The notes under the pieces were generated by a model that had not been told where the DNA came from, ran no database searches, and saw only the letters and a program-made list of their open reading frames with translations. Below are positions 3,282 through 64,000 of a stretch of 64,000 nucleotides of DNA, piece after piece. Position numbers and translations under genes: made by a program. Within the stretch, counting starts at the first letter, position 1; every line of letters starts with the position of its first letter. This DNA comes from an uncultured Candidatus Saccharibacteria bacterium (GTDB lineage Bacteria; Patescibacteriota; Minisyncoccia; Phycocordibacterales; JAKFXT01): contig CAYLPX010000002.1 in assembly GCA_964385825.1 (NCBI GenBank), forward strand, positions 98,876 to 162,875, read 5' to 3'.

Positions 3282-3284
3282 TCC

Positions 3285-5626: not shown

Positions 5627-5632
5627 TTCTCT

Positions 5633-8486: not shown

Positions 8487-8491
8487 AGGAG

Positions 8492-8626
8492 TTATACGCT
8501 TAGCTTTTTCCTTCCTTGAGCACGACGGCGGGCGAGGACTTTCTTACCCCCTGCTGTACGGCCACGGACCAAAAAACCATGGGTGGTAGCTCGCTTTTTC
8601 TTTTTTGGTTGATATGTTTTTGACAT
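8492..8626 (-). CDS. rpmH: 50S ribosomal protein L34
   Basis: Manual reverse-complement translation gives [44 protein letters not shown] (44 aa). It is under the 60 aa cut-off of the ORF track, so it is not listed there. Confidence 0.85.
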
Positions 8627-8794
8627 TGGTGGTTAGTATAGCCTAAAGAGGGTTTTTTTGGAATACCTTAGCCTTTTTGCCCTTTTGGCGAGTTTCCCAC
8701 AGGTTATACACCTGCTTATCACCATAAGTAGCTTTTTTAGGTAAGTGTTGCGCTTTTCCAGGAAGGGTATAATAGGTGTCACTAATAAACTTTT
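8627..8794. promoter_or_regulatory. divergent rpmH / dnaA promoter region
   Basis: TATAAT at about 8772-8777 lies upstream of the dnaA ATG at 8795, and a TTATACACC DnaA-box-like element is also present. Confidence 0.3.
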
Positions 8795-10135
8795 ATGCTT
8801 GATACTAAACAATTGTGGGAAAGTGTTTTGGGCGATATTGAGCAAAGTGTTTCAAAGGCTACTTTTACCACATGGTTTAAGGATACAGGGATTATGAAGC
8901 AGGATGAGGGGGTAATTTATCTCTCTGTCCCAAATCAATTCGTGAAAGAATGGTTATACAACAAATATCATAAAACTATTCTTAAAAACCTTCGCGATCT
9001 CAATGAGCAGGTTCGTAATATTGAATACGTAGTAAATAAGGAACCGCCAAAGACCGTGGAACATATTCGTAAAGTTGAAAATCCCACTACTGAACTTCCC
9101 CTCGCCGATCATTATGTAAATAAAGAAGATAATTTAAATCCCCGCTACACTTTTGATTCTTTTGTGGTTGGTTCTTTTAATGATATGGCGTATGCAGCCG
9201 CCCAAGCTGTTATGCGCAAACCTGGTATTGCATACAATCCTTTGTTTATTTACGGAAACACAGGGCATGGGAAAACTCACCTTATTCAAGCGATAGGGAA
9301 CTATATTAAACACACTTCTGAGAATAAAAAGGTTTACTACATAACCTCAGAGAACTTTTATTTAGGTTTAGTTAACGCGATGCAAGAAAATAAAATTCTT
9401 TTATTTAAAGAAAAGTATCGAAAATACGATGTTTTTATTATGGACGATGTTCAGTTCCTATCAAATAAAGAAAAAACTCAGGAGGAGTTGTTCCATTTGT
9501 TTAATACCCTTTATGACAATAATAAACAAATTATCTTTTCTTCTGATAAACATATAAATCAGATTCCAAACCTAGAGGATCGTATTAAATCACGTTTTGG
9601 TGCTGGAATGATTGTAGACATCCAAGCCCCTGACTATGACTCTCGTGTGGCTATTATAAAAACAAAATGTGCGGTTCAAGGGATTATTCTACCAGAGGAG
9701 ATTATTGCATACCTTGCTTCTTCTGATAATAGTATCCGTGAATTGGAAGGTGCCCTAAACACCATTACCTATCAAATTCAATTAAAAAATAAAGTTCTTT
9801 CTCTTGCTGAAATAAAAAATATTATAAAAGAGACTAGTAAACCTAAAAAGATGTTTTCAGTGAAAGAGATTATAAAAACAATTGCTGATTTTTATGACAT
9901 TCCTGAAGCTAGTATCTATGAAAAAACAAGGAGAAAGGAAGTTGTTAAACCTCGACAGATTATTATGTACATCTTAAGAGAGGATTTTAAGGTTTCATAT
10001 CCCACGATTGGAGAAAAACTTGGTGGAAGAGATCATACAACAGTTATTCATTCATGCGAGAAAATTAAACATGACATCAAAGAAGATATGCAGTTAAGTG
10101 AGGAGATAGATCGGATTAAAACTTTATTAAAGTAG
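8795..10135 (+). CDS. dnaA: chromosomal replication initiator DnaA
   Basis: Walker A GNTGHGKTHL, the AAA+ sensor motifs and the C-terminal DNA-binding motif TIGEKLGGRDHTTVIHSCEKI are all present. Confidence 0.92.
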   Translation: MLDTKQLWESVLGDIEQSVSKATFTTWFKDTGIMKQDEGVIYLSVPNQFVKEWLYNKYHKTILKNLRDLNEQVRNIEYVVNKEPPKTVEHIRKVENPTTELPLADHYVNKEDNLNPRYTFDSFVVGSFNDMAYAAAQAVMRKPGIAYNPLFIYGNTGHGKTHLIQAIGNYIKHTSENKKVYYITSENFYLGLVNAMQENKILLFKEKYRKYDVFIMDDVQFLSNKEKTQEELFHLFNTLYDNNKQIIFSSDKHINQIPNLEDRIKSRFGAGMIVDIQAPDYDSRVAIIKTKCAVQGIILPEEIIAYLASSDNSIRELEGALNTITYQIQLKNKVLSLAEIKNIIKETSKPKKMFSVKEIIKTIADFYDIPEASIYEKTRRKEVVKPRQIIMYILREDFKVSYPTIGEKLGGRDHTTVIHSCEKIKHDIKEDMQLSEEIDRIKTLLK

Positions 10136-10315
10136 GGAAAAGGTGTGGAAAAGATTTGTATAAGTTTAGGAAAAAGACCAAAGTTATACACAAAAAAAAT
10201 TAAAAATATTTTTATGCCAAAACTATACACAGTAAAAAAACTTCTCTCTCTTAAAAACCCTATATTTTTAGGGGTTAAAAAGAAATCCACTTATCCACTG
10301 TATAATTAGCAACGT
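10136..10315. promoter_or_regulatory. putative oriC: DnaA-box cluster and AT-rich unwinding region
   Basis: Four 9-mers are within one mismatch of TTATCCACA: TGTGGAAAA at 10144, TTATACACA at 10184, CTATACACA at 10222 and TTATCCACT at 10291. The region is very AT-rich and sits between dnaA and dnaN. Confidence 0.55.
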
Positions 10316-11410
10316 ATGAAAATAGAATGTAATAAAGATAAGTTACAAGAATTTGTAACTAAAATAGAAAAAACAACTAGCAGAAATGCCACATTACCTA
10401 TACTTGCTTGTATTCTTCTTGTTGCAAAAGATAAAACTCTGACACTCAAAGCAACCAATCTTGAAGTTGGTAGTGAGTTGGTGCTCCCAGTGAAAATAGA
10501 AAAGGAGGGGGTGGTGGCTCTTTCAGGGAGCATGCTTTCTCAAACTCTCTCTTCTTTAAAAACAACCAAAAGCCTCTTTTTAGAAGAAAAAGAGGGGAAT
10601 TTAGAGTTAAAAACAAACGAAACAACTGTTTTATTAAAAACAATAAGTTACGAGGATTTTCCTCTTATTCCGCGCATAGAAGCTGAAACAAAAATAAAGA
10701 TTAAAGTAAAGGAGTTAATTTTAGGTATAAAGTCAGTGGTAAACAGTGCTGCACTTTCAACTATACGACCAGAATTAGGGAGTATTTATATTTATCAAGA
10801 AACAAATACTCTTGTTTTTGTGGCAACAGACGCTTTTCGTTTGGCTGAGAAAAAGATTGTTGTAAAACAAATAGAACAATTCCCCTCTATTCTTATTCCA
10901 TATAAAAATGCTTTAGAGATCGTACGTCTTTTTGATGGGGTAGATGAAGAGGTAGATCTTTTAATTACTAAAAACCAAATAAGCCTTGAGGGAGGAGGAG
11001 TTTTTATAACTTCTCGAGTAGTTGATGGAGTTTTTCCGGATTATACCCAAATTATACCAAAGGAATATATAACTACGGTATTAGTTCTAAAGCAAGATAT
11101 ATTAAATGGAATAAAAAGTCTTTCGGTTTTTTCAGATAAGTTTAACCAGATCCTTTTTACAGTTCATAAAGAAGGGGTTACTTTAGAAACAAAAAACAAT
11201 GATGTGGGGGAAGGGAAGACGTTAATTGTGGGTAAGGTAACTGGCGAAACACTTACACGTAAGTTTAACCAAAAATATATTACTGATGCATTTTCTACTA
11301 TAACTGATGATTCAGTTTTACTGTCTTTTGCCGATGAAAGAAAACCGTTAGTGATAGAAGGGGCCTCAAATAAAAGTTTTAAATACTTGGTGATGCCGAT
11401 GAATAATTAA
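10316..11410 (+). CDS. dnaN: DNA polymerase III beta sliding clamp
   Basis: A 364 aa three-domain beta-clamp pattern lies immediately after dnaA. Confidence 0.85.
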   Translation: MKIECNKDKLQEFVTKIEKTTSRNATLPILACILLVAKDKTLTLKATNLEVGSELVLPVKIEKEGVVALSGSMLSQTLSSLKTTKSLFLEEKEGNLELKTNETTVLLKTISYEDFPLIPRIEAETKIKIKVKELILGIKSVVNSAALSTIRPELGSIYIYQETNTLVFVATDAFRLAEKKIVVKQIEQFPSILIPYKNALEIVRLFDGVDEEVDLLITKNQISLEGGGVFITSRVVDGVFPDYTQIIPKEYITTVLVLKQDILNGIKSLSVFSDKFNQILFTVHKEGVTLETKNNDVGEGKTLIVGKVTGETLTRKFNQKYITDAFSTITDDSVLLSFADERKPLVIEGASNKSFKYLVMPMNN

Positions 11411-29230: not shown

Positions 29231-30499
29231 CTAGGGGGTAAGCAGCTTTTCCAGTTCTTCGCGTGCTATTTCAGCATCGCTCCAGGGGGTGCGCTTGTTG
29301 TTCGCTTCCATGATGTAAGGGTCGGTTCCCTTGCCGCTTATGAGTACGGTCGAACCAAGATTGGCGTGACGTAGGGCAGTGCGGATAGCTTCTCTTCTAT
29401 CCATGATGATTTCGGTTTTTTTATTGGTAATACCCGCTTTAATATCGGCAACAATTTTTTCTGGATTTTCATCATACGGATCTTCATTGGTGAGAATGAT
29501 CTCATCGCAGTATGAGCTGGCAATAGCACCCATGTCGTGGCGTTTACTTTTGTCGCGCCCGCCACCTGTGCCACCGAGCACACAGATACGACGCGTGCCG
29601 GCAAAGGCCTCATAGAGCTTTTTAAGCGAATCAGTAGTATGTGCATAGTCCACAACAACAGTAAAGTTTTGTCCCGCTTCTATTTTCTGTACACGACCGA
29701 GGGCACCTTTAAAGGATTCTATGGCGGCTACCGCAACTTCTTCTTTGATAGCAAGGGCGCTCGCTAGGGTTAAAGCAGAAAGTGCATTCATAACATTAAA
29801 CTCTCCGGGAAGGGTCGTATGCACAGGACGACCCCTCCATGAAAAGTATCCACCCGAATGCCCTAGTTCAAAAGGTTTAGCATCTTGAAGTTTGTATATA
29901 TGCTTTTCTGAGTATGGTAGGTTGGCAAAATATGAAAGCTCAGGGTCATCCCCGTTAAGTATGGCAATACTTTTCTGCTTTCTATTAAAAGCACATCGTT
30001 TAGCTATTTCTCTTTTGGCTGCACGATACTTTTCGTAGGAACCATGGCGTTCTATGTGCTCAGGAGAGAGGTTGGAAAGCACAAAGGCATCAAGGTAAAG
30101 GAAGCGATGGCGGTACTGCAGTACCGCTTCGCTACTTATTTCTATAACGGCATGCGTGCACCCTTTTTTAATCGCTTCACGCAAAAGGCGCTGCAAAAAG
30201 AAACGCCCAGGGGTCGTCATTTTGAATAAATTGCGTTCACTTTTCTCCCCAATTTTGAATTGAATAGTAGAAACCAGCGCGGCTTTGTGACCAGCGGCAC
30301 TTAGGAGGTGATGAATGTATTCACTAGTAGTAGTTTTACCTTTAGTTCCGGTTACTCCAATAACAATGAGTTCTTTGGAAGGGAAGCGGTAAAAAAAGGC
30401 TCCTAGTAAAGCGAGAAGGTAGTGATACGCAGGCTGGAAAAAGCGGAAAATAGGTTTCGGGATTATCTTTTCTAGAGTACGGAGTGTTGTTTCAAGCAT
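29231..30499 (-). CDS. murE: Mur ligase, probably MurE
   Basis: ATP-binding motif GVTGTKGKTTT and the Mur ligase middle and C-terminal domains are present. Confidence 0.6.
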   Translation of the reverse strand: MLETTLRTLEKIIPKPIFRFFQPAYHYLLALLGAFFYRFPSKELIVIGVTGTKGKTTTSEYIHHLLSAAGHKAALVSTIQFKIGEKSERNLFKMTTPGRFFLQRLLREAIKKGCTHAVIEISSEAVLQYRHRFLYLDAFVLSNLSPEHIERHGSYEKYRAAKREIAKRCAFNRKQKSIAILNGDDPELSYFANLPYSEKHIYKLQDAKPFELGHSGGYFSWRGRPVHTTLPGEFNVMNALSALTLASALAIKEEVAVAAIESFKGALGRVQKIEAGQNFTVVVDYAHTTDSLKKLYEAFAGTRRICVLGGTGGGRDKSKRHDMGAIASSYCDEIILTNEDPYDENPEKIVADIKAGITNKKTEIIMDRREAIRTALRHANLGSTVLISGKGTDPYIMEANNKRTPWSDAEIAREELEKLLTP

Positions 30500-48690: not shown

Positions 48691-49872
48691 TTAGGAACTA
48701 AATGAGCGAAGGAATTTTGCCATGGTTCCCATTTCATCGGTGTGGATAGTTGCAACTATAGTGCTGCTATGGGGGCTACTAATAATACTGTCTTCATGCA
48801 GAGCTCGAGCATTTTTAGATTTTTCTAATTTAATATTGAAACAGGAGAGGTGAGTTACGATTCGTTCACGAATAATAGAAGATCGCTCACCGATTGTGCC
48901 TGAAAATATGAGAGCTTCTAGTTTGCCGAGTGAGATAGTGAGGCGAGAAATTTCCTCTGCAATACTCATAGTAAAATTGGTAATAGCAGTATGAGCGTTT
49001 TTCTCGCCACGCTCTTCAAGTTCTAGGAGTTGTGGTATGTCTCCACTTGATCCTGAAATACCCTTTAGCCCACTTTCTTTGTAAAGGTAGGTGAGGGTGT
49101 CATTTGGCGAAAGCTTTTTCTCTTGCATAAGTGCGAGGAGTGCTCCAGGATCAACATTGCCTGATCGAGTAGACATAACAACTCCACCAAGGGGAGAATA
49201 GCTCATAGATGTAGCAACACTCTTGCCGTTATGGAGTGCGGTGACACTACTTCCACCACCCAAGTGACACACAATAGTGGTAGTGGGTACACTACCAAGC
49301 AGAGTTTCTATTTTAGGAACAATGGATTGAAGAGAAATTCCATGATAGCCAAAGGGCCTGAGGTCGTAGGTTTCGCAGTCGGTTTTGGCAAAGGGGAGGG
49401 GACGAGTATTTCTATCAATACTGTTATGGAATTCACTATCGGATATAGCCACTAAACGACTCTGGGGCAACTCTTTTTGTAGTTCCTGAAGCGTAGTAAG
49501 TGTCGGTGTAATGTGGAGAGGGTCAAGTTCAGCCTTACTTTTGAGCTTCTCTACATAAGCTTCTGTTACTAGTTGGCTTTGAGTAAAGTAAGTGCCTGGA
49601 GCTACTACTCTAATAGCAACATTGCTAATCTGCTCTTTTGAAACAGTTAGTTTATTGTGTAATGCGAGCAGTATGTAGGGAAGACTTCGCTCGTAATCAG
49701 TCGCTGAAAGAGGAACTGACCCCACCTCACTACTAAAGGTTTCGTTTGAAATATAATCAAGTGCTCGTTTTTCTATATGGAAAAAAGCAACACATCCCTT
49801 AGTAGTATAGAGAGCATACTTTTTTGAAGCACTACCGAGATTTACTATGAGTGAATAGGTTTCCATTGCCAT
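48691..49872 (-). CDS. ackA: acetate kinase
   Basis: The N-terminus is LIVNLGSASKKYAL (the VNCGSSS-type motif) and the C-terminus contains VCHLGGGSSVTA. Confidence 0.85.
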   Translation of the reverse strand: MAMETYSLIVNLGSASKKYALYTTKGCVAFFHIEKRALDYISNETFSSEVGSVPLSATDYERSLPYILLALHNKLTVSKEQISNVAIRVVAPGTYFTQSQLVTEAYVEKLKSKAELDPLHITPTLTTLQELQKELPQSRLVAISDSEFHNSIDRNTRPLPFAKTDCETYDLRPFGYHGISLQSIVPKIETLLGSVPTTTIVCHLGGGSSVTALHNGKSVATSMSYSPLGGVVMSTRSGNVDPGALLALMQEKKLSPNDTLTYLYKESGLKGISGSSGDIPQLLELEERGEKNAHTAITNFTMSIAEEISRLTISLGKLEALIFSGTIGERSSIIRERIVTHLSCFNIKLEKSKNARALHEDSIISSPHSSTIVATIHTDEMGTMAKFLRSFSS

Positions 49873-52214
49873 AATTCTATTTCTTCCGGATCAACTCCAT
49901 GCGTTATGATGTATTGCCTATGAGACGCTAGCTTATCGTTGTATAGCTCGATGAGTCTGTCGGCAGTAGGGCCATCGAGTACCTTTCGAGCCTTAAGCGC
50001 GGCAAAGGCATCAAGGGCTAAATGATAGCGACTTGTTTTATTGCGAACGTGCATATCAAAGGGGGTAGTAGTAGAACCATTTTCAATATATCCATGCACA
50101 GTGAAGCGCGAGGTGTCTTTGTAATCGAACAATACTTGTTTCAGTGTTTGTGGGTATCCATGGAAATTGAAAATAACAGGCTTATCGGCAGTAAAGAAAC
50201 TTTCAAAGTCTATTGGTACGCGGCAATTTTCATTCCCTATACCAATAGTTGAGAGTTCTAGAATATTTACAAAGCGGACACGGACTTGTGGAACTTCAGC
50301 TTTGACGATAGAGATTGCAGCGAGCGCTTCTTTGGTTAGGTAGTCACCAACTGCACTAAAGACGATATCAGGGTTTTCCTCGCTGGCAAATTTCCAAGTA
50401 GCAAGTCCAGTCGCGAATTCCTCCTCAGCCTCCACCGGTGTAAGCCAACGTGGCTCTTGGGTTTTGCCGGCGGCGATGATATTGATACCGTTTTTAGATT
50501 CAAGGGCATGCTTTAGAGTAACAAGCATACTGTTGCCGTCGGCAGGAAAGAAGACGCGTACAAAGCAACCACTTTTTTGAAGCATGTCAGTGATAAATCC
50601 GGGGTTTTGATGAGAGAAACCATTGTGTTCTTGTCGCCAGCCAGAGGAAGTGAGGATGTAGTTAAGTGAAGGAACATCGCCTCGCCATGGCACTTCGCGT
50701 GCGGCTTTCAAGAACTTGGCGTATTGATCAGCCATACTGGTTATAACTTGAATGAAAGCTTCGTACGAGGCAAACACAGCGTGACGCCCAGAGAGTGTGT
50801 AGCCTTGGGCTAATCCTTGAAGGGTGTGCTCAGAGAGCATTTCTATAACTCTGCCGTCCCTGGCATAGTCTCTGTCCCATGGGAAAAGAGGGGCAAGGAG
50901 TGCTCGCTTGGTTGTTTTAAAAATATCATCTATTTTGTTGGAGTAAGTTTCATCGGGTGAGAGGACGCGGAAGTTTTTGTTCTTCTCATTGAGTTTAAAT
51001 ACTTCCGCCATGTAGAGTCCCGCGCGGCGCATACTACTTGAGCCAATGAAGCCAGGGTAGGGAACCTCTTCAGAGAACTTTGTAACTTCAGGTAGTATTA
51101 GCGGCTTGTAAACATCGCTAGTTGGCATAGTGTGGGAATTATCACCCATGCGGAAGTGGAGATCGGGAATAATATCTTTTATTTCTGCTATAGGACCCAT
51201 AGCTCTATCAAAGACCTCGTTGAATTTGTATGAGGCAAGCCATGCTTCAACTAGCTCAAGCTCTTCTTTGTCAGTTTTTGCATTTGCTCCTACAACTTGA
51301 TGTGAGAGACAGTTGTCTTCTATCTTTTCTCCATGGAGAGTTTTGATTCCACCCCAGCCCTTGGGGGTCCTCATAATGATCATGGGGAGTTTTGGTGGCT
51401 CAGTTTGGGTTGTAGTGCGAGCGGTTTCTTTAATAGTGTCTATTTTGCTAAATGAGTCAAAGAGGGCTTCGGCCATGCTCTTGTGTAAATCCTTGCCGTC
51501 AACCACTATAGGATCATAGCCATATCCTTCGAAAAGCGTTTTTAGATCTTTATTACTCATGCGGCCATACACCGTGGGGCCTGAAATTTTGTAACCATTA
51601 AGGTGAAGCACGGGGAGCACAACACCATTTGTTTTGGGATCAACGAATTTATTTAAATGCCAGGCAGTAGCTGTGGCTGCCGTTTCAGCCTCACCGTCTC
51701 CAATAAGGCATACAGCAGTTAAGTCAGGATTATCAAGTACTGCTCCATATGAAGTAGAGAGGGAATATCCAAGCTCACCACCCTCAAGGATCACTCCTGG
51801 GGTTCCAGGATTGCTATGACTTGGGAAACCATAAGGCCAACTAAAATTTTTAGCGATATAAGCAATGCCAGTTTCATCCAAGGTAGCACTTTCATAGTAG
51901 CGCTCCAGTGTTCCTTCAAGAAAGAGATTGGCTTGAAGGGCGGGGAAACCGTGTCCAGGCCCCAGAACAAACATGACACTGCGGGGGTTTTCTTTGATGA
52001 AAGCATTTAGGTGCGCATAGAGAAAATTGATGCCCGGACCTGTGCCCCAATGTCCCAAAAGACGCGGTTTAATATGGTCAAAGGTAAGTTTCTGTGTGAG
52101 AAGAAAATTGTCTTGCAAATAGATTTGAGCAGCAGTGAGGTAGTTTACTACACGTAAATACTTTTTTATTGACTCAATATGAGTAATGGTTCTTTTCATA
52201 AATATATTATACAT
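49845..52214 (-). CDS. xfp: xylulose-5-phosphate/fructose-6-phosphate phosphoketolase
   Basis: GHWGTGPG, EGGELGYSL and the TPP-binding GDGEAETG motif in a 789 aa protein. Confidence 0.9.
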   Translation of the reverse strand: MYNIFMKRTITHIESIKKYLRVVNYLTAAQIYLQDNFLLTQKLTFDHIKPRLLGHWGTGPGINFLYAHLNAFIKENPRSVMFVLGPGHGFPALQANLFLEGTLERYYESATLDETGIAYIAKNFSWPYGFPSHSNPGTPGVILEGGELGYSLSTSYGAVLDNPDLTAVCLIGDGEAETAATATAWHLNKFVDPKTNGVVLPVLHLNGYKISGPTVYGRMSNKDLKTLFEGYGYDPIVVDGKDLHKSMAEALFDSFSKIDTIKETARTTTQTEPPKLPMIIMRTPKGWGGIKTLHGEKIEDNCLSHQVVGANAKTDKEELELVEAWLASYKFNEVFDRAMGPIAEIKDIIPDLHFRMGDNSHTMPTSDVYKPLILPEVTKFSEEVPYPGFIGSSSMRRAGLYMAEVFKLNEKNKNFRVLSPDETYSNKIDDIFKTTKRALLAPLFPWDRDYARDGRVIEMLSEHTLQGLAQGYTLSGRHAVFASYEAFIQVITSMADQYAKFLKAAREVPWRGDVPSLNYILTSSGWRQEHNGFSHQNPGFITDMLQKSGCFVRVFFPADGNSMLVTLKHALESKNGINIIAAGKTQEPRWLTPVEAEEEFATGLATWKFASEENPDIVFSAVGDYLTKEALAAISIVKAEVPQVRVRFVNILELSTIGIGNENCRVPIDFESFFTADKPVIFNFHGYPQTLKQVLFDYKDTSRFTVHGYIENGSTTTPFDMHVRNKTSRYHLALDAFAALKARKVLDGPTADRLIELYNDKLASHRQYIITHGVDPEEIELWQWKPIHS

Positions 52215-58192: not shown

Positions 58193-58768
58193 GTGTTTGA
58201 AATGAACATGTTGCCGGTCGTGAAAGTTGGGTCGTTGGAGGAGCTTGGGGAAGCTCTCCATGTGGCAAACATTTCTACGGGCAGTTGGGGGGTGGGTAAG
58301 GCGAAAACCATTGGCCACCTTTTCGATGAGTTGCGGGCAGGGGAGGCGAGGCTGGTGCGTACTTCAGAGGGCAAGCTTCGTCGGGAGACTGAAGTTGTCT
58401 GCCTTGAGATTGCAAAGGAGGGGCGGGTGCTTAAGGAGATCTACCAGCTCTTCTATGAAAGTGGGCGTACTCGGACAAGAACTCTCGACACTACAACTGG
58501 CGAGAAAATGCGCCCAGGCGAAACCCCGCTTGAGGCCCTGCGCCGCCTGGTTAGGGAGGAGTTCCCGGTGTTGCAATGCCAAACACCTGATTCCTTCGAA
58601 CCCCTTGAGGTGCGGACTCGCGAGGCGGAAAGCGAGAGCTATCCGGAACTCACGACGCGGTACGTGCTCCACTTCTTCACTGTGGAGCTACAGCTTCCGC
58701 TCCCGGACTTTGTCGTTCAGGAGGCCGACAAGATGTCGGCCTATGCTTGGGTAAACAGGCCCAAGTAG
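58193..58768 (+). CDS. foreign high-GC Nudix-fold-like protein
   Basis: GEKMRPGETPLEALRRLVREEFPV aligns with the Nudix box, with the first Glu of REx2EE replaced by Leu. The ORF is about 57% GC and GC3-rich, and is framed by its own terminators. Confidence 0.45.
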   Translation: MFEMNMLPVVKVGSLEELGEALHVANISTGSWGVGKAKTIGHLFDELRAGEARLVRTSEGKLRRETEVVCLEIAKEGRVLKEIYQLFYESGRTRTRTLDTTTGEKMRPGETPLEALRRLVREEFPVLQCQTPDSFEPLEVRTREAESESYPELTTRYVLHFFTVELQLPLPDFVVQEADKMSAYAWVNRPK

Positions 58769-58773
58769 TTTTC

Positions 58774-58803
58774 AAAAGGCGCCTTCGGGCGCCTGTTTTT
58801 ATA
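58774..58803. terminator. bidirectional GC-rich terminator
   Basis: AAAA, then GGCGCC-TTCG-GGCGCC, then TGTTTTT. Confidence 0.6.
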
Positions 58804-59458
58804 AAATATCTTTTAGCTCTAAGAGCGAGGAGAGTTGAAGGACGGGGAGCATCTCATCTTTTTTACTAAGGTTTACTAGAACTGATTTAATACCTAAGGT
58901 TTTTGGTATTTCATAATCACTACTAACCCGATCTCCAATATAGAGAAAATTTGTGGGGGTAAGGTTTGGATATTTTGAAAGCCAAAGTCTATACGCTTCA
59001 CCGTCTGACTTGGCAGCGTCACTGTCGGTAATGAGGTGATTGAAGAGTGCTGTGGAAAGGTTTAGCTTCTCTAGCTTTTTAAGTGTAATAGGGGAATTAG
59101 AGCCAGTAACAATATCAATATTTTTATATTTTGATTTTAGATAAGTCAAAAGTTCCAATGTTCTTGGATCAGCTACAAGAGTTGAAGCTATATCAGCCCG
59201 TTCAAGTGCCTCTTGTACAATCTCGCGTGCATTCGGCACACCAAGGGCTTCTAAACTTTTGCTACCGCTTAACCCCTTACCCTCCTGGTACTGCTCTCTA
59301 AAAAGATTTCTAGCTTCCTCTAAACTACAGCTTCTATGCTCAGCGATTTTTTCGTAAATATATTTTTGTATGGCTTCATCTACCTCGGGACTTTTGGGGT
59401 AGAGGGTTTGATCGAGGTCAAAACCAATAACGCGTATGCTCGAAGTATCAAAAAACAT
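58799..59458 (-). CDS. HAD-superfamily hydrolase (possible nucleotidase)
   Basis: Motif I VIGFDLDQTLY. The start was chosen at MFFDTSS, one nt after the upstream gene's stop. The listed ORF extends to 59530. Confidence 0.6.
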   Translation of the reverse strand: MFFDTSSIRVIGFDLDQTLYPKSPEVDEAIQKYIYEKIAEHRSCSLEEARNLFREQYQEGKGLSGSKSLEALGVPNAREIVQEALERADIASTLVADPRTLELLTYLKSKYKNIDIVTGSNSPITLKKLEKLNLSTALFNHLITDSDAAKSDGEAYRLWLSKYPNLTPTNFLYIGDRVSSDYEIPKTLGIKSVLVNLSKKDEMLPVLQLSSLLELKDIL

Positions 59459-59459
59459 A

Positions 59460-61877
59460 TTAGTAACAAACATAAAAAACGGATGCTTCACCAAGCGGGA
59501 AGCCCAAGGCTTTGCTATAAAGGGTTCCAATGTGATTAATGAGTTTTTGATCCTCAGTTTTATTTGAAAGTGCGTGGTTCATAAACACTGCAGTTATGTA
59601 TACTGCTTTACCCATAACATTGGCCTGTAGGTATGCCAAATAATCGCCCTGTGGGTCACAAGTTCCTGCCTGGTATTCACTTAGAACTGGATTATTATGC
59701 ATCACCCCTTTTTCTTTTAGGTAGTTAATAGCTTTTTCCACAGTATCTACTCCCTCAAAGTTGCGTAGCCGATCTAGGGTTTTGTTTTTAGGAGCCCCTT
59801 CTTCCTTTAGTTTGTAACTATAGTAGGCAACAGCATGTGTTTCGGTTGGGATTTTGGAATTCTCATTAAAAAGATTAAGACCACTTTTAGTTTCATAATC
59901 GTCAGCTGGCTTTGAAGGTTCTCCGAGGAGCTTTTTCGTACGCTGTTCTTCAGTAAGAAGGAGGATGTTGCCACGACTCGAGAGCATGTACATGTCGCCA
60001 TGGGTAGCTCCGAGCCCCTCACGAATAGTAGTGACATAGGCATCGTAGAGACCAAAGATATTTTCAGGGTATGCGTTTACTATGTTGTGTGCTCGCGCAA
60101 TGTGGAATGAATGGAGGGTATTGCCTTGCATAAAGAAAATATCATGAGTAAGGCAGGGGTCGTGGGTGTATTTTTTCTTACCACTTCCTTCGTCTATGTA
60201 GCTACTCATGTCTCGTGAAGGATCATAGCGCTGCACGATGGTTGCCTTATGAGGATTTCTCCTAAGTGTCTCAATAGTTTGAGGGAGTTGATCAAAGCCA
60301 AAGAATGCCCTAGTTCGCTCTCCATAGCTATAATCGCCGTCGTGATCAAAACGGAGTAATTGTTCTTTATACGCTTTGCGGATTTCCTCAGTGCTACGCT
60401 CACCCTGCTTGTAGAGCGTGGGGAGTGTTGCTAGAGATTTTTCGGTATTGCGGTAGATGGCGAGAACTACCCCTGAGCGCGCGAGCCCTTTTTGCTTGTC
60501 GCCATGCTCTTCGGTGAGCCCTTGTGTATAGAGTTTAAGTAGGGTGTTTTTATGAACATCAAAGAAGCTGTCACTTTCGGTAATAAGAAGGGGTAGGGTT
60601 TCGGTGTTCACCTTAAAAATATTGGGGAAGTCTTGGATAAAGGCGTACCCCAGCTTAGCGGCAATCGCTGCCCGACCCACCTGCCCCCCAACATCAATGC
60701 GGTGGAGGATGTCCATTTCATAATTTTCGAATCTATTTTTTTCAGAAAGGACCTTAAAGAGGGCAGGAAGAGAGGGGCTACGGAGTTCAAACACTTCTTC
60801 ACACACATCAAAGGCAAGGCACATGACAAGCACGAGTCCATCACGAACATTAATCTTGTAATAATATTTTTTGTCAGTAATTAGTGAGACGGTAGGTTCG
60901 AGCAGTATTTCAGTTGTTCCTACAACACTTTCTGCTTTTACAAATGAGGGAAAAGAGACGTTGTTTTTTATTTCAGCATTGACTCGTGATATTTCTGCTC
61001 CAAGGAATAATTGCTCTTCTCCAGTTAGTAATTTCTTTTTCTCTCCCAAGAATTTCATTAAGGAATATTCAAGTAGGAATTCATCAGCACTTTTTATGAA
61101 GTAGGTTTTCTCACCTAGCCTAAGATCAAGGCGAATAGTATCCCTTTCCCTTTTTACTCCAAAGGGGACTGTGGGAGTGAACTCTATGGGCGCCGCCTCA
61201 ACTTTGGGTGGTTGAAGGTGCTGGAATTCCTTAGGGTCAAGTTCAATAAGGTTTTTATTTTTATTGACTGGTTCGCTACTTAGAAGTTTCACTAGCTTGT
61301 TAAGTGAGTCGTAGTAGATTTTCCCTTTACTGTTTACTTCAAAAAGAAGTGTGTAGATAGATTCTGGGATTTTTGGTTTAAGCCACTCTAGGTAACTCAT
61401 GACAATGTCCTTACTGTAGTCATTTTTGTACATGAACATAGGTAGGACAATTATCTCCTTTTGAAAGGCGTCAACAATTTTCGGAGAAAGATTGGGGTAG
61501 TGAGCCGAGGCAGCTTTTCCGTTAATGATAGGGTGCTCTTTATCTTTTCCATCTATGCCATATTGAAGGGCAAGTAGAAGATTGGTACTGGGGGAGAAGG
61601 TGAGCGACTCTTCAGAAAAAAGTATAAGGAACGTAATGGTAGGATGCGCCAGGGAGTTTAGAATCATACGCTCTGTTCCGTCACGGCTGACAATAAGAGA
61701 CCCCAAGGCTGATACGTATGTTCGAAGTGGCTCCTCTATTTCGTTTAACACCTGTCCAGGGGCTGAGGTATTAGTACAAATACCAATAAAACCCTCCTTG
61801 CCCTCGGGGGGTGTTATAAGTAGGGCGTCAACGATTGGGAATTGTGAGGTAGTACTCATTTTTTTAGACTGCTCCAA
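59460..61877 (-). CDS. large multidomain protein with a thymidylate-synthase (ThyA)-fold domain
   Basis: Residues about 480-700 align with ThyA: YGERTRAFFGFDQ, RNPHKATIVQRYDP, the nucleophile region DPCLTHDIFFMQGNTLHSFHIARAHN and the PENIFGLYDAYV region. The roughly 480 aa N-terminus and the roughly 100 aa C-terminal extension are unassigned. Confidence 0.5.
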   Translation of the reverse strand: MEQSKKMSTTSQFPIVDALLITPPEGKEGFIGICTNTSAPGQVLNEIEEPLRTYVSALGSLIVSRDGTERMILNSLAHPTITFLILFSEESLTFSPSTNLLLALQYGIDGKDKEHPIINGKAASAHYPNLSPKIVDAFQKEIIVLPMFMYKNDYSKDIVMSYLEWLKPKIPESIYTLLFEVNSKGKIYYDSLNKLVKLLSSEPVNKNKNLIELDPKEFQHLQPPKVEAAPIEFTPTVPFGVKRERDTIRLDLRLGEKTYFIKSADEFLLEYSLMKFLGEKKKLLTGEEQLFLGAEISRVNAEIKNNVSFPSFVKAESVVGTTEILLEPTVSLITDKKYYYKINVRDGLVLVMCLAFDVCEEVFELRSPSLPALFKVLSEKNRFENYEMDILHRIDVGGQVGRAAIAAKLGYAFIQDFPNIFKVNTETLPLLITESDSFFDVHKNTLLKLYTQGLTEEHGDKQKGLARSGVVLAIYRNTEKSLATLPTLYKQGERSTEEIRKAYKEQLLRFDHDGDYSYGERTRAFFGFDQLPQTIETLRRNPHKATIVQRYDPSRDMSSYIDEGSGKKKYTHDPCLTHDIFFMQGNTLHSFHIARAHNIVNAYPENIFGLYDAYVTTIREGLGATHGDMYMLSSRGNILLLTEEQRTKKLLGEPSKPADDYETKSGLNLFNENSKIPTETHAVAYYSYKLKEEGAPKNKTLDRLRNFEGVDTVEKAINYLKEKGVMHNNPVLSEYQAGTCDPQGDYLAYLQANVMGKAVYITAVFMNHALSNKTEDQKLINHIGTLYSKALGFPLGEASVFYVCY

Positions 61878-62743
61878 GGAGAGGGTAGGAGTTCTTCTAG
61901 AGTGTAAGTCTTATAAGCATCAGTTTCAAGCGCAAAACAATAGTAGGTAAGGTTTAAATTAAAGCGAGAGCTCATCTCACTTAAAAATTGTCGGCAGCAA
62001 CCACAGATTTCGCAGGGCACATCTTTGAACTTAGAAGAAACGAGGGCGAGGGCAATAATATTTTTCCTTTGGTGCATGAGGGAATTAAGCACGGCCCCCA
62101 TTTCGGCGTGAATGTTGAGACGTTTTTCAAAGCTGCTATATTGCCCACTACTAAATATATTGCCTTCGCTCGTTACCACTGCAGCTCCATACCCACTTGC
62201 ACTATCGTAAGTAGGAAAGTTTTTAGTTATCGCATCTTTCGCTACTTGTTTAAGCACGACAAGATCAAGAGGGTTGGTTTTAAGTGGGGGGAGCGGTGTT
62301 GATTGCTCAGCAGTAGCTACTTTTGAAAGCAGGGCACTTTCGGGCTGATAGTAGGGAGTGAGCGTTGTAACATCAGTAGTTTCAAATAATGTTTCGCCAG
62401 AGTCGTTAATAATTGTGTAGGAAATTTTTCTTCCCACACGGATAGCATAATCAACTAGAACTTTTATGGTAAGTGGAGACAGTGTTTGTTTAAATCGAGA
62501 GGCGTCCTTAAGCAGTGTTACCACGTGTTCAATTTTAAAATCAGAAGCTCCAATGCTAAGTAGTAGCGCAACTTGTTCCGAACTAATATCAAGGAGATTA
62601 GTATCGGAATCTACACTTCCGCCGTAATACCTTTTTCCATCTTCGCTTATGGCAACACTTACTGAGCTAGATGGCCCATCTTTACGCTCTTTGCTAATAG
62701 CGAGATCTACATGTTCTCTGAGGGCCTGTGTCTCTTTATGCAT
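61856..62743 (-). CDS. two-domain cytidine/deoxycytidine deaminase-like protein
   Basis: The C-terminal half carries the zinc motifs HAEMGAV and PCEICGCCRQF. The N-terminal half is a degenerate CDA-like domain. The 295 aa length matches dimeric-type Cdd. Confidence 0.55.
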   Translation of the reverse strand: MHKETQALREHVDLAISKERKDGPSSSVSVAISEDGKRYYGGSVDSDTNLLDISSEQVALLLSIGASDFKIEHVVTLLKDASRFKQTLSPLTIKVLVDYAIRVGRKISYTIINDSGETLFETTDVTTLTPYYQPESALLSKVATAEQSTPLPPLKTNPLDLVVLKQVAKDAITKNFPTYDSASGYGAAVVTSEGNIFSSGQYSSFEKRLNIHAEMGAVLNSLMHQRKNIIALALVSSKFKDVPCEICGCCRQFLSEMSSRFNLNLTYYCFALETDAYKTYTLEELLPSPWSSLKK

Positions 62744-62748
62744 ACAGG

Positions 62749-63684
62749 TTAATAGTTACTGCGAAGTTTGCTTACATTAAGTCCAGCACATTCCCAGTCA
62801 TAGTGTAGCGCTTTCTTAATAAAGTCATTGAGAAGGTGGATTTTGTCACGTTCAAGTCGTGGGTACATTTTCTCGGATTGTTTGCTGGTGAGGCGAAGGG
62901 TTGGATTGAAGGTGACCGGGAGAGCGTAGTAGGGAATGAGGGATTTGGACTCATCTATTGGTTCAACCACGAGGGCGGTGATGGGGCGGTTTAATTTTTC
63001 GATAGCATAATCTATGCGGTGTGATCCGTCACAGATAATATAGAATGAGTGCTTCCCAGAATAACGTAGCCCGTAATTAATAATGGGCATATTTGAATTG
63101 AAAATATCCAAGTGATCAATATTACTCACTTCATCAATATGGAATTTATTTAAAAATCGTTCCGCAAGATGATGGAGGTTCCCTTGAGCATCCTTGATAT
63201 AGGTATTTTTAAAGCGTTGACTTAAACGATCAAGATCGATGTAGCCATTTTTAAACTCATAGGTATGTTTTTCGATCACGGGCGGCATGACATGGAAGGA
63301 GCCTCTTCCTTCCCAATGATAGGAAACAGCTTCTTTGAGGCGATTGATAGCTAGGTTATGGTTGTGAAGGAAGTCATCAACTATTTCCATAATATCAATT
63401 TGATTTTGATATATAGTGGGTTGAGGAGTAAATAGTGAATGGCTGACACCTTCACTTTGGACGATTTGTGGAGATTCACCTAAATATTCTGGTGGGTAGA
63501 TTTTGGCAAAACTAAAATTAGCGTATTTGTAAGGCTTGATACGTTTCCCATCTTTGGTATAAAGTCCACGAAACTCAAGTCCCTTGAGAGCAGAACTTAG
63601 CTCAGGAAATTTTAAAATTTTATCTAGAATAAGCTTGTGCTTCATAGGGAACTTAACTATATCCCGCGGGGAGTAGGGGGGCAA
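62749..63684 (-). CDS. ParB/Srx-fold (DGxHR-motif) protein
   Basis: YIICDGSHRIDYAIEK resembles the ParB-like nuclease / DndB-type DGQHR motif. No other motif was recognised. Confidence 0.35.
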   Translation of the reverse strand: MPPYSPRDIVKFPMKHKLILDKILKFPELSSALKGLEFRGLYTKDGKRIKPYKYANFSFAKIYPPEYLGESPQIVQSEGVSHSLFTPQPTIYQNQIDIMEIVDDFLHNHNLAINRLKEAVSYHWEGRGSFHVMPPVIEKHTYEFKNGYIDLDRLSQRFKNTYIKDAQGNLHHLAERFLNKFHIDEVSNIDHLDIFNSNMPIINYGLRYSGKHSFYIICDGSHRIDYAIEKLNRPITALVVEPIDESKSLIPYYALPVTFNPTLRLTSKQSEKMYPRLERDKIHLLNDFIKKALHYDWECAGLNVSKLRSNY

Positions 63685-63731
63685 CTAGACCTCATAAGCA
63701 GTCTATTTTCTATAATTTGCTACAATAGGGT

Positions 63732-64000
63732 TTATGACTTTTGTGCTTAAAATCAAGCGTTTACACCCCGATGCTAGGGTTCCTTCCTATGCTTATGCGG
63801 GGGACGCAGGGCTAGATCTGTGTGTATGTGAAGAAAGTACTTTTGCTGTGGGAGAATACAAGGCTGTAGGAACAGGATTAGCTTTTGAAGTACCAGAGGG
63901 TCATGTAGGCCTTATTTGGGACAAAAGTGGACTTTCTATAAAGAATGGACTAAAGACACTGGCTGGGGTGCTGGATTCAGGGTATAGAGGAGAACTCATG
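63732..64000 (+). CDS. dut: dUTP diphosphatase (partial, runs off the window end)
   Basis: AYAGDAGLDL and GLIWDKSGLS...GVLDSGYRGE are present. Confidence 0.85.

What the first reader, a model, noticed from the sequence alone, without database searches (positions are those of the whole stretch)
58799..64000. Pyrimidine-deoxynucleotide cluster with a giant ThyA-fold fusion protein and a ParB/DGxHR-like protein
Three genes are co-directional on the minus strand. One is a HAD hydrolase. One is an 805 aa protein whose central region aligns with thymidylate synthase including the nucleophile Cys (DPCLTHDIFFMQ), but with about 480 aa of unknown N-terminal sequence and a 100 aa C-terminal tail. Canonical ThyA is about 265-320 aa. 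The third is a two-domain cytidine deaminase. A ParB/Srx-like DGSHR-motif protein and a divergently transcribed dUTPase follow. This could be routine dTMP salvage (dCMP to dUMP to dTMP) in a reduced genome. However, the oversized ThyA-fold protein and the DGxHR-type protein are the components seen in DNA modification systems such as DndB and DpdB. ThyA homologues acting as pyrimidine hydroxymethylases are the entry step of phage and bacterial hypermodification pathways for thymidine and cytosine.
Basis: partly seen in the sequence, partly recalled or inferred. Interest (0 to 1): 0.7.

Follow-up and report, generated by a model that had tools for sequence, protein, structure and literature searches.

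The report
Conserved CPR/DPANN thymidylate-synthase-like operon
The genes are real and form a tightly packed four-gene operon, shared by ultra-small CPR bacteria and DPANN archaea, whose 799-residue core enzyme is an uncharacterised, heavily remodelled relative of archaeal thymidylate synthase; it most likely makes the DNA precursor dTMP by a non-standard route rather than chemically modifying DNA.

Summary
Four genes, not three, are co-directional and translationally coupled on the minus strand: a ParB-CE/Srx-fold protein (298 aa), a pseudo-dimeric cytidine-deaminase-fold protein (295 aa), a 799-aa multidomain protein and a HAD phosphatase. They are divergent from dut.

The large protein has four recognisable parts: MtrA-like, PterinBD-DUF4346-like, an archaeal-type ThyA fold and a C-terminal domain. 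The same gene order occurs in 42 of 55 related loci from Patescibacteria and DPANN archaea; most exceptions are contig ends. glyA, dut, folD or NUDIX genes are often adjacent. CDA–core and core–HAD gene fusions exist.

The ThyA domain keeps the Cys nucleophile, Arg166, Tyr94 and the uracil-specifying Asn177 (E. coli numbering). Unlike every relative examined, it has Asp169→Asn and lacks His207 and Tyr209. Its closest solved structure is a phage flavin-dependent dCMP hydroxylase.

I found no similarity to Dnd/Dpd or any other defence protein, and no close relative in viral contigs.

Best reading: a housekeeping dUMP→dTMP module with non-canonical cofactor handling (confidence 0.55). A different C5 product cannot be excluded. 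It is uncharacterised and a new variant of a known kind.

The parts
63735..64000 (+). 5' part of dut (dUTPase), divergent from the operon; it runs off the window end.
   Evidence: The sequence reads MTFVLKIKRLHPDARVPSYAYAGDAGLDL.... The public copy of the same locus has a 142-aa PF00692 dUTPase at this position. A Dut homologue lies next to the cassette in 19 of 55 related loci.
63646..63734 (.). 89-bp divergent intergenic region between the ParB-like gene and dut; presumed shared promoter region.
   Evidence: The promoter role is inferred and was not tested.
62749..63645 (-). ParB-CE / Srx-fold protein, 298 aa, first gene of the operon; invariant CDGxHR motif.
61856..62743 (-). Two-domain cytidine-deaminase-fold protein, 295 aa. 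The C-terminal half is catalytic; the N-terminal half is degenerate.
   Evidence: PF00383 E=1.5e-5 over aa 181-257. TIGR01354 E=1.2e-11 over aa 165-290, below the curated cut-off. The alignment of 20 orthologues keeps H-x-E and C-G-x-C-R-Q in the C-terminal half and only S-E in the N-terminal half. It is fused to the large protein in P0246, 1111 aa.
59460..61859 (-). Core enzyme, 799 aa plus stop. Residue numbers in this report follow the 805-aa ORF that starts at the TTG at 61877.
   Evidence: Homologues are 52-75% identical in CPR and 41-46% identical in DPANN, all about 800 aa. AF2 model pLDDT 82. The ATG at 61859 overlaps the CDA-like stop as ATGA. The public gene call is 799 aa.
61263..61859 (-). 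MtrA-like Rossmann-type domain of the core enzyme (aa 7-205).
60876..61262 (-). Beta-sheet plus two-helix segment of unknown fold (aa 206-334).
   Evidence: Secondary structure of the AF2 model, pLDDT mostly above 80. No family or fold match was attributable to this segment.
60603..60875 (-). PterinBD-DUF4346-like domain (aa ~335-425), containing invariant Cys353 and Cys359.
   Evidence: PF14251 matches the equivalent region of family member P0246 (E=9.8e-6) and of relatives P0271 (4e-13), P0275, P0266, P0280 and P0284. There is no direct hit in the window protein at E<=0.1. The invariant cysteines are listed.
59802..60602 (-). Archaeal-type ThyA-fold catalytic domain (aa ~426-692). Key codons: Cys575 at 60153-60155, Asn598 at 60084-60086, Asn606 at 60060-60062.
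59463..59801 (-). C-terminal alpha/beta domain of unknown function (aa ~693-805).
   Evidence: AF2 pLDDT above 90. It is also conserved in the 811-877-aa relatives (stretches reaching profile positions ~763-800; sequences). There is no significant internal repeat with the ThyA core (hhalign E=0.018).
58799..59473 (-). HAD-IA phosphatase, last gene of the operon (224 aa from the ATG at 59473 in public calls; 219 aa from the ATG at 59458).
   Evidence: PF00702 48.7 bits and PF13419 42.2 bits, both above their cut-offs. Sub-threshold NCBIfam matches to TIGR02253, YjjG and pyrimidine 5'-nucleotidase. The DLDQT motif is visible. It is fused to the core enzyme in P0247, 981 aa. It is present next to the core gene in 50 of 55 loci.
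58193..58768 (+). NUDIX hydrolase, convergent with the operon; a frequent but not constant neighbour.
   Evidence: PF00293 25.4 bits, above its cut-off. It is adjacent in 15 of 55 related loci.

Best explanation
This is a housekeeping pyrimidine-deoxynucleotide operon typical of Patescibacteria (CPR) and shared with DPANN archaea. Its function is to make thymidylate.

Shown:
- Four translationally coupled genes encode a ParB-CE/Srx-fold protein, a pseudo-dimeric cytidine-deaminase-fold enzyme with one intact zinc site, a 799-aa core enzyme and a HAD phosphatase.
- The core enzyme is a derived member of the archaeal (methanogen-type, TIGR03283) ThyA lineage. In that lineage, fusion to an MtrA-like domain and a PterinBD-DUF4346 domain is common.
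- Its ThyA-fold domain keeps the residues that activate a uracil nucleotide: the nucleophile Cys575 (E. coli Cys146), Arg595 (Arg166), Tyr518 (Tyr94) and Asn606 (Asn177, which selects uracil over cytosine).

Inferred:
- dUMP is supplied by the neighbouring dUTPase and by C-to-U deamination by the CDA-fold enzyme.
- Cys575 adds to C6 of dUMP, and a one-carbon unit from the folate pool (glyA and folD are frequent neighbours) is installed at C5 to give dTMP.
- The folate-contacting Asp169 is Asn, and the 3'-OH-binding His207 and Tyr209 are lost, in every family member but in no relative. The one-carbon or reducing cofactor is therefore probably not handled as in canonical ThyA. It is more likely presented by the accessory MtrA-like and DUF4346 domains, whose MtrA-equivalent ligand loops are the most conserved parts of the N-domain (with Phe in place of the cobalt-ligating His).
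- The ParB-CE protein is most likely an NTP-dependent phosphotransferase or NTPase working directly with the core enzyme, either as a (deoxy)nucleoside or nucleotide kinase or as an activator.
- The HAD enzyme is most likely a pyrimidine nucleotidase that feeds or balances the pathway.
- The gene fusions suggest that the proteins act as a complex.
For: Operon structure.

Conservation as a unit:
- 42 of 55 non-duplicate loci have ParB-like, CDA-like, core and HAD genes colinear. Ten of the 13 exceptions are cut by a contig end, one has a rotated order, and two lack a partner gene nearby.
- This includes 7 of 11 DPANN loci.
- Fusions exist between the CDA-like and core proteins (P0246) and between the core and HAD proteins (P0247).

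Metabolic neighbours:
- dut in 19, glyA in 16 and NUDIX in 15 of 55 loci.
- folD in four loci and a tmk-like gene between glyA and dut in L024.
- secE-nusG-rplK alongside.

ThyA membership:
- TIGR03283 E=6.7e-15.
- A bridging profile hits PDB ThyA at E=1.7e-21.
- There is a graded series of relatives: stand-alone archaeal TS, 460-520-aa MtrA+TS(+DUF4346) fusions (P0280 scores 190.8 bits against the TIGR03283 cut-off of 174.55), 811-877-aa forms, and this family.

Active site: Cys, Arg166, Tyr94 and Asn177 equivalents are invariant.

Partner proteins: a ParB-CE homologue, in one case together with a HAD gene, also flanks the more distant 811-877-aa family. The nearest folds of the ParB-like protein include sulfiredoxin and the serine kinases SbnI and SerK.

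Literature: Parcubacteria are reported to lack recognisable tmk, cmk and gmk (PMC4508563).
Against: - The domain fails the curated cut-offs of both thymidylate synthase models (55.1 against 174.55 bits for TIGR03283; 12.4 against 24.3 for PF00303).
- Asp169 to Asn is, in phage homologues, the validated signature of flavin-dependent 5-hydroxy-dCMP synthases rather than methylases (PMC13326640). The closest solved structure is that hydroxylase (9iqc/9iqu).
- Polar His572 and Asp573 occupy the Leu143 and Ala144 positions. An acidic residue at position 143 correlates with hydroxymethyl products in phage enzymes.
- The His207 and Tyr209 equivalents are lost.
- Whether these genomes lack thyA and thyX elsewhere could not be tested.
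- No activity has been shown for any member, or for the MtrA-TS fusions. The biochemistry of archaeal ThyA is itself barely characterised (PMC9931769 and PMC9012536).
- The roles assigned to the ParB-CE and HAD proteins are inferences. One locus (L024) has a tmk-like gene as well.
Confidence: 0.55

Rival explanations
1. The core enzyme makes a non-methyl C5 derivative of dUMP, either 5-hydroxy-dUMP through a flavin or 5-hydroxymethyl-dUMP. The ParB-CE (kinase-like) and HAD proteins process this derivative further, so these organisms carry a modified thymine or uracil base in their DNA, or use the product as an intermediate.
For: - Asp169 to Asn is invariant in 56 of 56 members and absent from all relatives. 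The same change is diagnostic of flavin-dependent 5hodCMP synthases.
- Polar His and Asp occupy positions 143 and 144.
- A kinase-like and a phosphatase partner travel with the long forms of the enzyme.
Against: - Position 177 is Asn (uracil), not the Asp of the validated hydroxylases and hydroxymethylases of dCMP and CMP.
- glyA and folD are frequent neighbours, which a hydroxylase would not need.
- The precomputed Pfam annotations of the seven neighbourhoods shown gene by gene list no glycosyltransferase or DNA-level modifying enzyme beside the cassette; the other loci were screened only for the cassette and a few named genes.
- No member was found in viral contigs.
- An O2-dependent hydroxylase fits poorly with organisms common in anoxic groundwater (general knowledge).
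- The higher structural score may only reflect the compact size shared with archaeal-type ThyA.
- A second, canonical thymidylate synthase would then be required, and none was seen nearby.
Confidence: 0.17
2. The cassette acts on something other than a deoxyuridine nucleotide, for example a ribonucleotide such as UMP or CMP, or a pyrimidine-like cofactor intermediate of the flavin or pterin type. The deaminase, the phosphatase and the kinase-like enzyme would then form a salvage or biosynthetic route unrelated to dTMP.
For: - The 3'-OH-binding His207 and Tyr209 are lost.
- The accessory domains (MtrA-like, PterinBD-DUF4346) come from pterin and corrinoid contexts.
- CDA-fold deaminases and HAD phosphatases also occur in riboflavin synthesis (general knowledge). 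JGI names the HAD fusion 'FMN phosphatase YigB'.
Against: - dUTPase is the commonest neighbour (19 of 55 loci) and a tmk-like gene is adjacent in one locus.
- The deaminase matches cytidine deaminase models, not RibD.
- The HAD enzyme's best sub-threshold matches include pyrimidine nucleotidases.
- Phosphate-binding Arg166, Tyr94 and Asn177 are conserved as in nucleotide-acting ThyA enzymes.
Confidence: 0.1
3. The cassette is a DNA-modification or defence system of the Dnd/Dpd type, in which the DGxHR (ParB-like) protein binds DNA and the ThyA-like enzyme supplies a modified base.
For: The CDGxHR motif resembles the DGQHR motif of DndB-type proteins (the resemblance is from general knowledge). 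ThyA homologues do start phage hypermodification pathways.
Against: - No PADLOC model, including Dnd and Dpd components, matches any of the five proteins.
- No HTH or other DNA-binding domain was detected in the ParB-like protein.
- The cassette is near-universal, syntenic with housekeeping genes, highly conserved in sequence and not in a variable island.
- No restriction or nuclease partner is nearby.
Confidence: 0.03

Closest known systems
Archaeal (methanogen-type) thymidylate synthase, NCBIfam TIGR03283, including its MtrA-like + ThyA (+ PterinBD-DUF4346) fusion forms of 460-520 aa
   Same: - It is the best sequence model for the catalytic domain (E=6.7e-15).
- Both have the same compact ThyA fold.
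- Both share the YxYGxR, DQ, PC, R...N and G motifs.
- The same accessory domains are present (MtrA-like, DUF4346).
- Part of the fusion clade shares the F-x-P replacement of the MtrA cobalt-ligating His (read by eye).
   Different: - This protein is 800 aa, with an extra segment at aa 206-334 and an extra C-terminal domain.
- DUF4346 lies before, not after, the ThyA domain.
- Asp169 is Asn, His207 is Asn and Tyr209 is Leu; the archaeal forms keep D, H and Y.
- It scores far below the family cut-off.
- It comes with fixed ParB-CE, CDA-like and HAD partners.
- Even the archaeal enzymes are scarcely characterised biochemically.
Canonical folate-dependent thymidylate synthase ThyA (E. coli, human)
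   Different: E. coli ThyA does not find the gene by tblastn. The folate-contacting Asp169 is not conserved, and Glu58, Trp80 and Trp83 have no clear counterparts in a low-confidence alignment. There is no folA nearby. The protein is multidomain.
Phage flavin-dependent 5-hydroxy-dCMP synthase (AfhB of phage HY126, RB69 gp48; PDB 9iqc/9iqu)
   Same: It is the closest solved structure. It shares the Asp169 to Asn signature. It has the same small ThyA core.
   Different: Those enzymes have Asn177 to Asp (cytosine) and Leu143 to Glu; here position 177 is Asn and position 143 is His. They are about 220-aa single-domain phage proteins encoded next to sugar-activation and glycosyltransferase genes. 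This one is an 800-aa cellular protein next to glyA and dut.
MtrA, the corrinoid-binding subunit of the methyl-H4MPT:CoM methyltransferase, and its cytoplasmic homologues
   Different: The cobalt ligand His84 aligns to invariant Phe, and its partner Glu54 aligns to Ser or Asn. The match is below the Pfam cut-off (17.3 against 25 bits). There is no membrane anchor and no other Mtr subunits. Corrinoid binding is untested.
ParB/Srx-fold small-molecule phosphotransferases (sulfiredoxin, free serine kinase SerK, SbnI) and DGQHR/ParB-like proteins (DndB, DpdB)
   Different: There is no PADLOC match to DndB or DpdB. No DNA-binding domain was detected. A unique, well-predicted ~130-aa N-terminal beta-rich domain has no fold match. 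The protein is fixed next to a ThyA-family enzyme. Its substrate is unknown.
ThyX (flavin-dependent thymidylate synthase)
   Same: It may be a functional analogue: a thymidylate synthase that does not need DHFR would fit the lack of folA near the cassette.
   Different: There is no sequence or fold relationship. This comparison is purely an inference about chemistry.

Membership tests
ThyA superfamily (PF00303 / TIGR03283 / TIGR03284) | ThyA alpha/beta fold | tested here: met
ThyA superfamily (PF00303 / TIGR03283 / TIGR03284) | Nucleophilic Cys in a P-C motif, plus Arg166, Tyr94 and Asn177 (E. coli numbering) | tested here: met
   Cys575, Arg595, Tyr518 and Asn606 are invariant in 30 aligned homologues. 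The PC, RxxN and PEN motifs are present in 56 of 56 loci.
ThyA superfamily (PF00303 / TIGR03283 / TIGR03284) | Folate-contacting Asp169 and the 3'-OH-binding His207 and Tyr209 | tested here: not met
   The equivalents are Asn598, Asn637 and Leu639. All other relatives keep Asp169, and the archaeal forms keep His and Tyr.
ThyA superfamily (PF00303 / TIGR03283 / TIGR03284) | Score at or above the curated family cut-off | tested here: not met
   TIGR03283: 55.1 against 174.55 bits. PF00303: 12.4 against 24.3 bits. Homology is nevertheless secure through the bridging profile (E=1.7e-21 to PDB ThyA).
ThyA superfamily (PF00303 / TIGR03283 / TIGR03284) | Conversion of dUMP to dTMP | not testable with these tools
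   This needs complementation of a thyA mutant or an enzyme assay.
Flavin-dependent 5-hydroxy-dCMP synthase (AfhB / RB69 gp48 type) | Asp169 to Asn signature | tested here: met
   Asn598 is invariant. The signature is defined in PMC13326640.
Flavin-dependent 5-hydroxy-dCMP synthase (AfhB / RB69 gp48 type) | Asn177 to Asp (cytosine specificity) and an acidic residue at position 143 | tested here: not met
   Position 177 is Asn606. Position 143 is His or Lys.
Flavin-dependent 5-hydroxy-dCMP synthase (AfhB / RB69 gp48 type) | Bound flavin and O2-dependent hydroxylation | not testable with these tools
   This needs spectroscopy and an assay.
MtrA (PF04208) | MtrA Rossmann-type fold | tested here: met
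MtrA (PF04208) | Cobalt-ligating His84 and its partner Glu54 | tested here: not met
   They align to invariant Phe94 and to Ser64 (alignment, counted by hand). The residues are defined in PMC4915002.
MtrA (PF04208) | Score at or above the Pfam gathering cut-off | tested here: not met
   17.3 against 25 bits. Some orthologues carry a precomputed PF04208 hit.
PterinBD-DUF4346 (PF14251) | Profile match | tested here: inconclusive
   There is no hit in the window protein at E<=0.1. Family member P0246 matches at E=9.8e-6 (26.7 against 29.6 bits). Relatives P0271 and P0280 are above the cut-off.
ParB/Srx superfamily, including Pfam ParB-CE (PF24392) | ParB/Srx fold with a G-x-H-R type nucleotide-binding motif | tested here: inconclusive
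DndB / DpdB-type DNA-modification proteins | Match to defence-system models, with companion Dnd or Dpd genes | tested here: not met
   No PADLOC hit at E<=1. No companion genes appear in the Pfam-annotated neighbourhoods.
Cytidine/deoxycytidylate deaminase (PF00383) | H(C)-A-E and C-x-x-C zinc-binding motifs | tested here: met
   H-x-E and C-G-x-C-R-Q are conserved in the C-terminal half of 20 orthologues; the N-terminal half is degenerate. PF00383 scores 25.2 against 25 bits. The NCBIfam equivalog cut-offs are not reached, so the substrate (nucleoside or nucleotide) is open.
HAD-IA phosphatase | DxDxT motif and a profile score above the cut-off | tested here: met
   The DLDQT motif is visible. 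PF00702 scores 48.7 against 26.4 bits. Substrate-specific NCBIfam models are all far below their cut-offs.

The most novel reading that the evidence does not exclude
The core enzyme is the sole thymidylate synthase of a large part of the CPR bacteria and DPANN archaea. It represents a third mechanistic solution, after ThyA and ThyX: a ThyA-fold domain still activates dUMP through its cysteine but no longer uses methylene-folate as the reductant (Asp169 to Asn). Instead it receives the one-carbon unit or the reducing equivalents from a cofactor held by the fused MtrA-like and DUF4346 domains; this cofactor could be a His-off corrinoid, a flavin or a pterin. The ParB-CE protein acts as an NTP-dependent partner, either as a kinase or as an activator. 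dTMP would then be made without DHFR.
Probability: 0.2. Interest if true: 0.9.

Novelty: new variant of a known kind. Interest (0 to 1): 0.68.

Why it matters
dTMP synthesis is essential, and only two enzyme solutions are known: ThyA and ThyX. CPR bacteria and DPANN archaea make up a large share of microbial diversity. They depend on hosts for nucleotides, and their nucleotide metabolism has unexplained gaps; for example, tmk, cmk and gmk are reported missing in Parcubacteria (PMC4508563).

This is a strongly conserved four-protein module shared across the two domains. It is built around a ThyA-fold enzyme that has lost the canonical folate-binding Asp and gained corrinoid- and pterin-associated domains, and it comes with a ParB/Srx-fold partner. 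That makes two questions directly testable:
- How do these organisms make thymidylate?
- What do the MtrA-like/DUF4346 modules fused to archaeal thymidylate synthases do?

If the product is not dTMP, the cassette would instead predict a modified base in the DNA of a major part of the tree of life. Either way it is a clean target for complementation and enzymology. It is also a marker of gene exchange between CPR and DPANN.

Tried and rejected
- **Internal duplication of the ThyA core** (C-terminal domain as a degenerate second ThyA half). hhalign between the four segments found nothing significant; the best was ThyA against the C-terminal segment at E=0.018. Dropped.
- **Defence or DNA-modification membership.** PADLOC was negative for all five proteins.
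- **Phage association.** The scan of viral contigs found only one distant (25% identity) ThyA homologue.
- **Riboswitch clue to the cofactor** (cobalamin, THF, ZTP). Rfam at gathering thresholds found only tRNAs in the window and five related loci.
- **A second thymidylate synthase or DHFR.** This covers only the neighbourhoods, not whole genomes.
- **ORF 29231-30499 as FolC.** It is MurE.
- **AFDB Foldseek search.** The library was unavailable.
- **Literature searches.** Searches for MtrA plus thymidylate synthase, 'ParB-CE', 'DUF4346', and CPR/DPANN plus thymidylate synthase returned no paper, among those listed and opened, that describes this protein or cassette.
- **The 248-aa gene beside P0275 (L064).** It is not a ParB-CE homologue.
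- **First submission of the ParB-like alignment for structure prediction.** It was rebuilt as A3.


Full report
**What is in the sequence**

The right end of the window carries four co-directional minus-strand genes:
- a 298-aa ParB-like protein (62749-63645);
- a 295-aa cytidine-deaminase-fold protein (61856-62743);
- a large protein (59460-61859);
- a HAD hydrolase (58799-59458/59473).

The genes are packed for translational coupling. There are 5 nt between the first two. The deaminase stop and the large gene's ATG share an ATGA overlap. One nucleotide separates the large gene's TAA from the HAD ATG. Public gene calls of the identical sequence give 298, 295, 799 and 224 aa. The true length of the large protein is therefore 799 aa. 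I keep the 805-aa ORF numbering for residues.

A dUTPase gene is divergently transcribed and runs off the window. A NUDIX gene is convergent downstream, followed by rplK-nusG-secE. The rest of the window is housekeeping: dnaA-dnaN, polA, ruvB, murE, PBP1, type IV pilus genes, phosphoketolase and acetate kinase. The closest relatives are Patescibacteria MAGs.

**The large protein**

Pfam and NCBIfam give sub-threshold hits to the archaeal thymidylate synthase model TIGR03283 (E=6.7e-15, aa 439-612) and to MtrA (E=1.8e-7, aa 48-149). An AlphaFold2 model built on 30 homologues has pLDDT 82.

Structural searches gave these matches:
- Foldseek agrees on the ThyA fold.

A profile joining this domain to archaeal thymidylate synthases hits solved ThyA at E=1.7e-21, MilA at 4e-19 and AfhB at 1.5e-15. 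Superfamily membership is therefore secure.

The region around aa 335-425 corresponds to Pfam PterinBD-DUF4346. That family matches a member of this family and its relatives. Residues 206-334 and 693-805 have no recognisable relatives. No significant internal repeat was found.

**Family and relatives**

More than 120 homologues are 52-75% identical and all about 800 aa long. A genome scan found the protein full-length in many CPR lineages. It also found it, at 41-46% identity, in DPANN archaea: Woesearchaeota, Nanoarchaeia and Iainarchaeum.

An exhaustive search of 1.8 billion representatives shows a compact core family of about eight representatives at 50% identity, followed by a graded series of relatives:
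- forms of 811-906 aa;
- many archaeal MtrA-like + ThyA (+ DUF4346) fusions of 420-540 aa, one of which passes the TIGR03283 cut-off;
- stand-alone archaeal thymidylate synthases of about 200 aa.

The 'unknown N-terminus' is therefore a module that recurrently accompanies archaeal-type ThyA. It is not DHFR.

**Active site**

The spacing R-x2-[DN]-x7-N is identical to that of E. coli ThyA. An hhalign alignment and the bridging alignment give this mapping:

| E. coli ThyA | This protein |
|---|---|
| Cys146 | Cys575 |
| Arg166 | Arg595 |
| Tyr94 | Tyr518 |
| Asn177 | Asn606 |
| Asp169 | Asn598 |
| His207 | Asn637 |
| Tyr209 | Leu639 |
| Leu143 / Ala144 | His572 / Asp573 |

The motifs [HK]DPC, RxxN and PEN occur in 56 of 56 CPR and DPANN sequences in which they could be read. 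Every relative outside the family keeps Asp169.

According to Lee et al. (PMC13326640):
- Asn177 selects uracil and Asp selects cytosine.
- An acidic residue at position 143 correlates with hydroxymethyl products.
- Asp169 to Asn is diagnostic of flavin-dependent 5-hydroxy-dCMP synthases.

This enzyme therefore combines a uracil-type pocket with the loss of the canonical folate contact.

In the MtrA-like domain, the cobalt ligand His84 and its partner Glu54 (PMC4915002) align to invariant Phe94 and to Ser64. The segments equivalent to MtrA's three cobalamin-contacting loops are nevertheless the most conserved parts of the N-domain. Some archaeal fusions (P0289, P0293) keep the His. The long forms share an F-x-P motif instead.

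**Neighbourhood**

I compared ORFs of 58 related loci with the window's proteins. Among the 55 non-duplicate loci, 42 have the ParB-like, CDA-like, core and HAD genes colinear. Ten of the 13 exceptions are cut by a contig end, one is rotated, and two lack a partner gene nearby. Seven of 11 DPANN loci have the full order.

Neighbours of the cassette:
- dut is adjacent in 19 loci, glyA in 16 and NUDIX in 15.
- folD is near in four loci.
- A tmk-like gene sits between glyA and dut in L024.
- No ThyA-, ThyX- or DHFR-like ORF occurs in the window or in any flank.

Natural fusions join the CDA-like protein to the core (P0246, 1111 aa) and the core to the HAD enzyme (P0247, 981 aa).

The more distant 811-877-aa family is also flanked by a ParB-CE protein (L060/L061). 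In L065 it is flanked by both a HAD gene and a ParB-CE gene. The L065 ParB-CE protein aligns with the window's protein over its full length (E=5e-15). The ParB-CE/core pairing, with HAD in one of these loci, is therefore older than the CPR/DPANN family, whereas the deaminase was seen only next to that family.

**Partner proteins**

The deaminase has one intact H-x-E / C-G-x-C-R-Q site in its C-terminal half and a degenerate N-terminal copy.

The HAD protein has the DxDxT motif. Its sub-threshold matches include pyrimidine nucleotidases.

**Interpretation**

The simplest account that fits all of this is a housekeeping thymidylate module:
1. dUMP comes from dUTPase and from C-to-U deamination.
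2. Cys575 activates dUMP.
3. A one-carbon unit from the folate pool is installed at C5 to give dTMP.

Three points argue against a defence or hypermodification system of the Dnd/Dpd kind:
- the housekeeping synteny;
- the very strong sequence conservation in two domains of life;
- the absence of the family from viral contigs and from defence models.

What is not ordinary is the chemistry. The folate Asp is replaced in the same way as in flavin-dependent ThyA-fold hydroxylases. The 3'-OH contacts are gone. Three extra domains, two of them from corrinoid or pterin contexts, are fused. A ParB/Srx-fold partner is obligatory.

I therefore rate 'makes dTMP, with non-canonical cofactor handling' at 0.55, 'makes another C5 derivative of dUMP' at 0.17, 'acts on another substrate' at 0.10 and 'Dnd/Dpd-like system' at 0.03.

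The roles of the ParB-CE protein (kinase or NTP-dependent activator) and of the HAD enzyme (nucleotidase) are inferences. The reported lack of tmk, cmk and gmk in Parcubacteria (PMC4508563) makes a kinase role attractive. L024, however, carries a tmk-like gene as well.

**Novelty and limits**

NCBI records call the protein hypothetical; JGI auto-annotates it as thymidylate synthase and/or MtrA. The full-text searches returned no paper describing the fusion, the cassette, DUF4346 or ParB-CE. Reviews state that archaeal ThyA biochemistry is scarcely characterised.

The decisive test could not be run with these tools: whether genomes carrying the cassette lack thyA and thyX. No biochemical claim is shown.

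Noticed in passing
window 8145-11410 (dnaA 8795-10135, dnaN 10316-11410): The likely chromosomal replication origin lies here. dnaA and dnaN sit next to yidC (7404-8120). Cumulative GC skew reaches its minimum at about 8 kb, and G+C drops to 0.33-0.37 between 8 and 12 kb.
   Followed up: partly
window 275-6913: A cluster of type IV secretion or conjugation-like genes (PrgI-family protein, VirB4/TraG-type P-loop ATPase) plus several ORFs with no Pfam match, directly beside the origin region.
   Followed up: no
L062/L063 8001-9569 (protein P0293, Thermoprotei-labelled cluster): A 522-aa MtrA + ThyA fusion keeps the cobalt-ligating His84. It sits among many small unannotated ORFs, a resolvase, a PD-(D/E)XK protein and an SNF2-type helicase. 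This looks like a virus or mobile element, so the fusion may serve a different (modification?) role there.
   Followed up: no
P0246 (1111 aa) and P0247 (981 aa), metagenomic proteins: Natural gene fusions join the CDA-like protein to the core enzyme, and the core enzyme to the HAD phosphatase.
   Followed up: partly
L024 7043-7741 (minus strand): This is the only thymidylate-kinase-like ORF found in any flank. It lies exactly between glyA and dut, divergent from the cassette.
   Followed up: no
L060 3324-4065: A gap of about 740 bp lies between the ParB-CE gene and the 877-aa relative. It has no plus-strand ORF of 60 aa or more and no Rfam match.
   Followed up: partly
L001 1-1104, L003 1-3466, L067 2314-5844: The isoleucyl-tRNA synthetase near the cassette carries a histidine-phosphatase (His_Phos_1) domain inserted between its tRNA-synt_1 segments in several CPR genomes.
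   Followed up: no
window 48691-52214 (minus strand): A phosphoketolase (789 aa) and acetate kinase (393 aa) pair, identified from the Pfam annotation of the identical public locus L067.
   Followed up: no
L037, L045 and several TPA_asm loci: Some MAG records carrying the cassette are labelled Gammaproteobacteria, Methanosarcinales, Saccharibacteria or Peribacteria. The short contigs and the CPR/DPANN-like gene content suggest binning or labelling errors, so these taxon labels should not be used to infer distribution.
   Followed up: no
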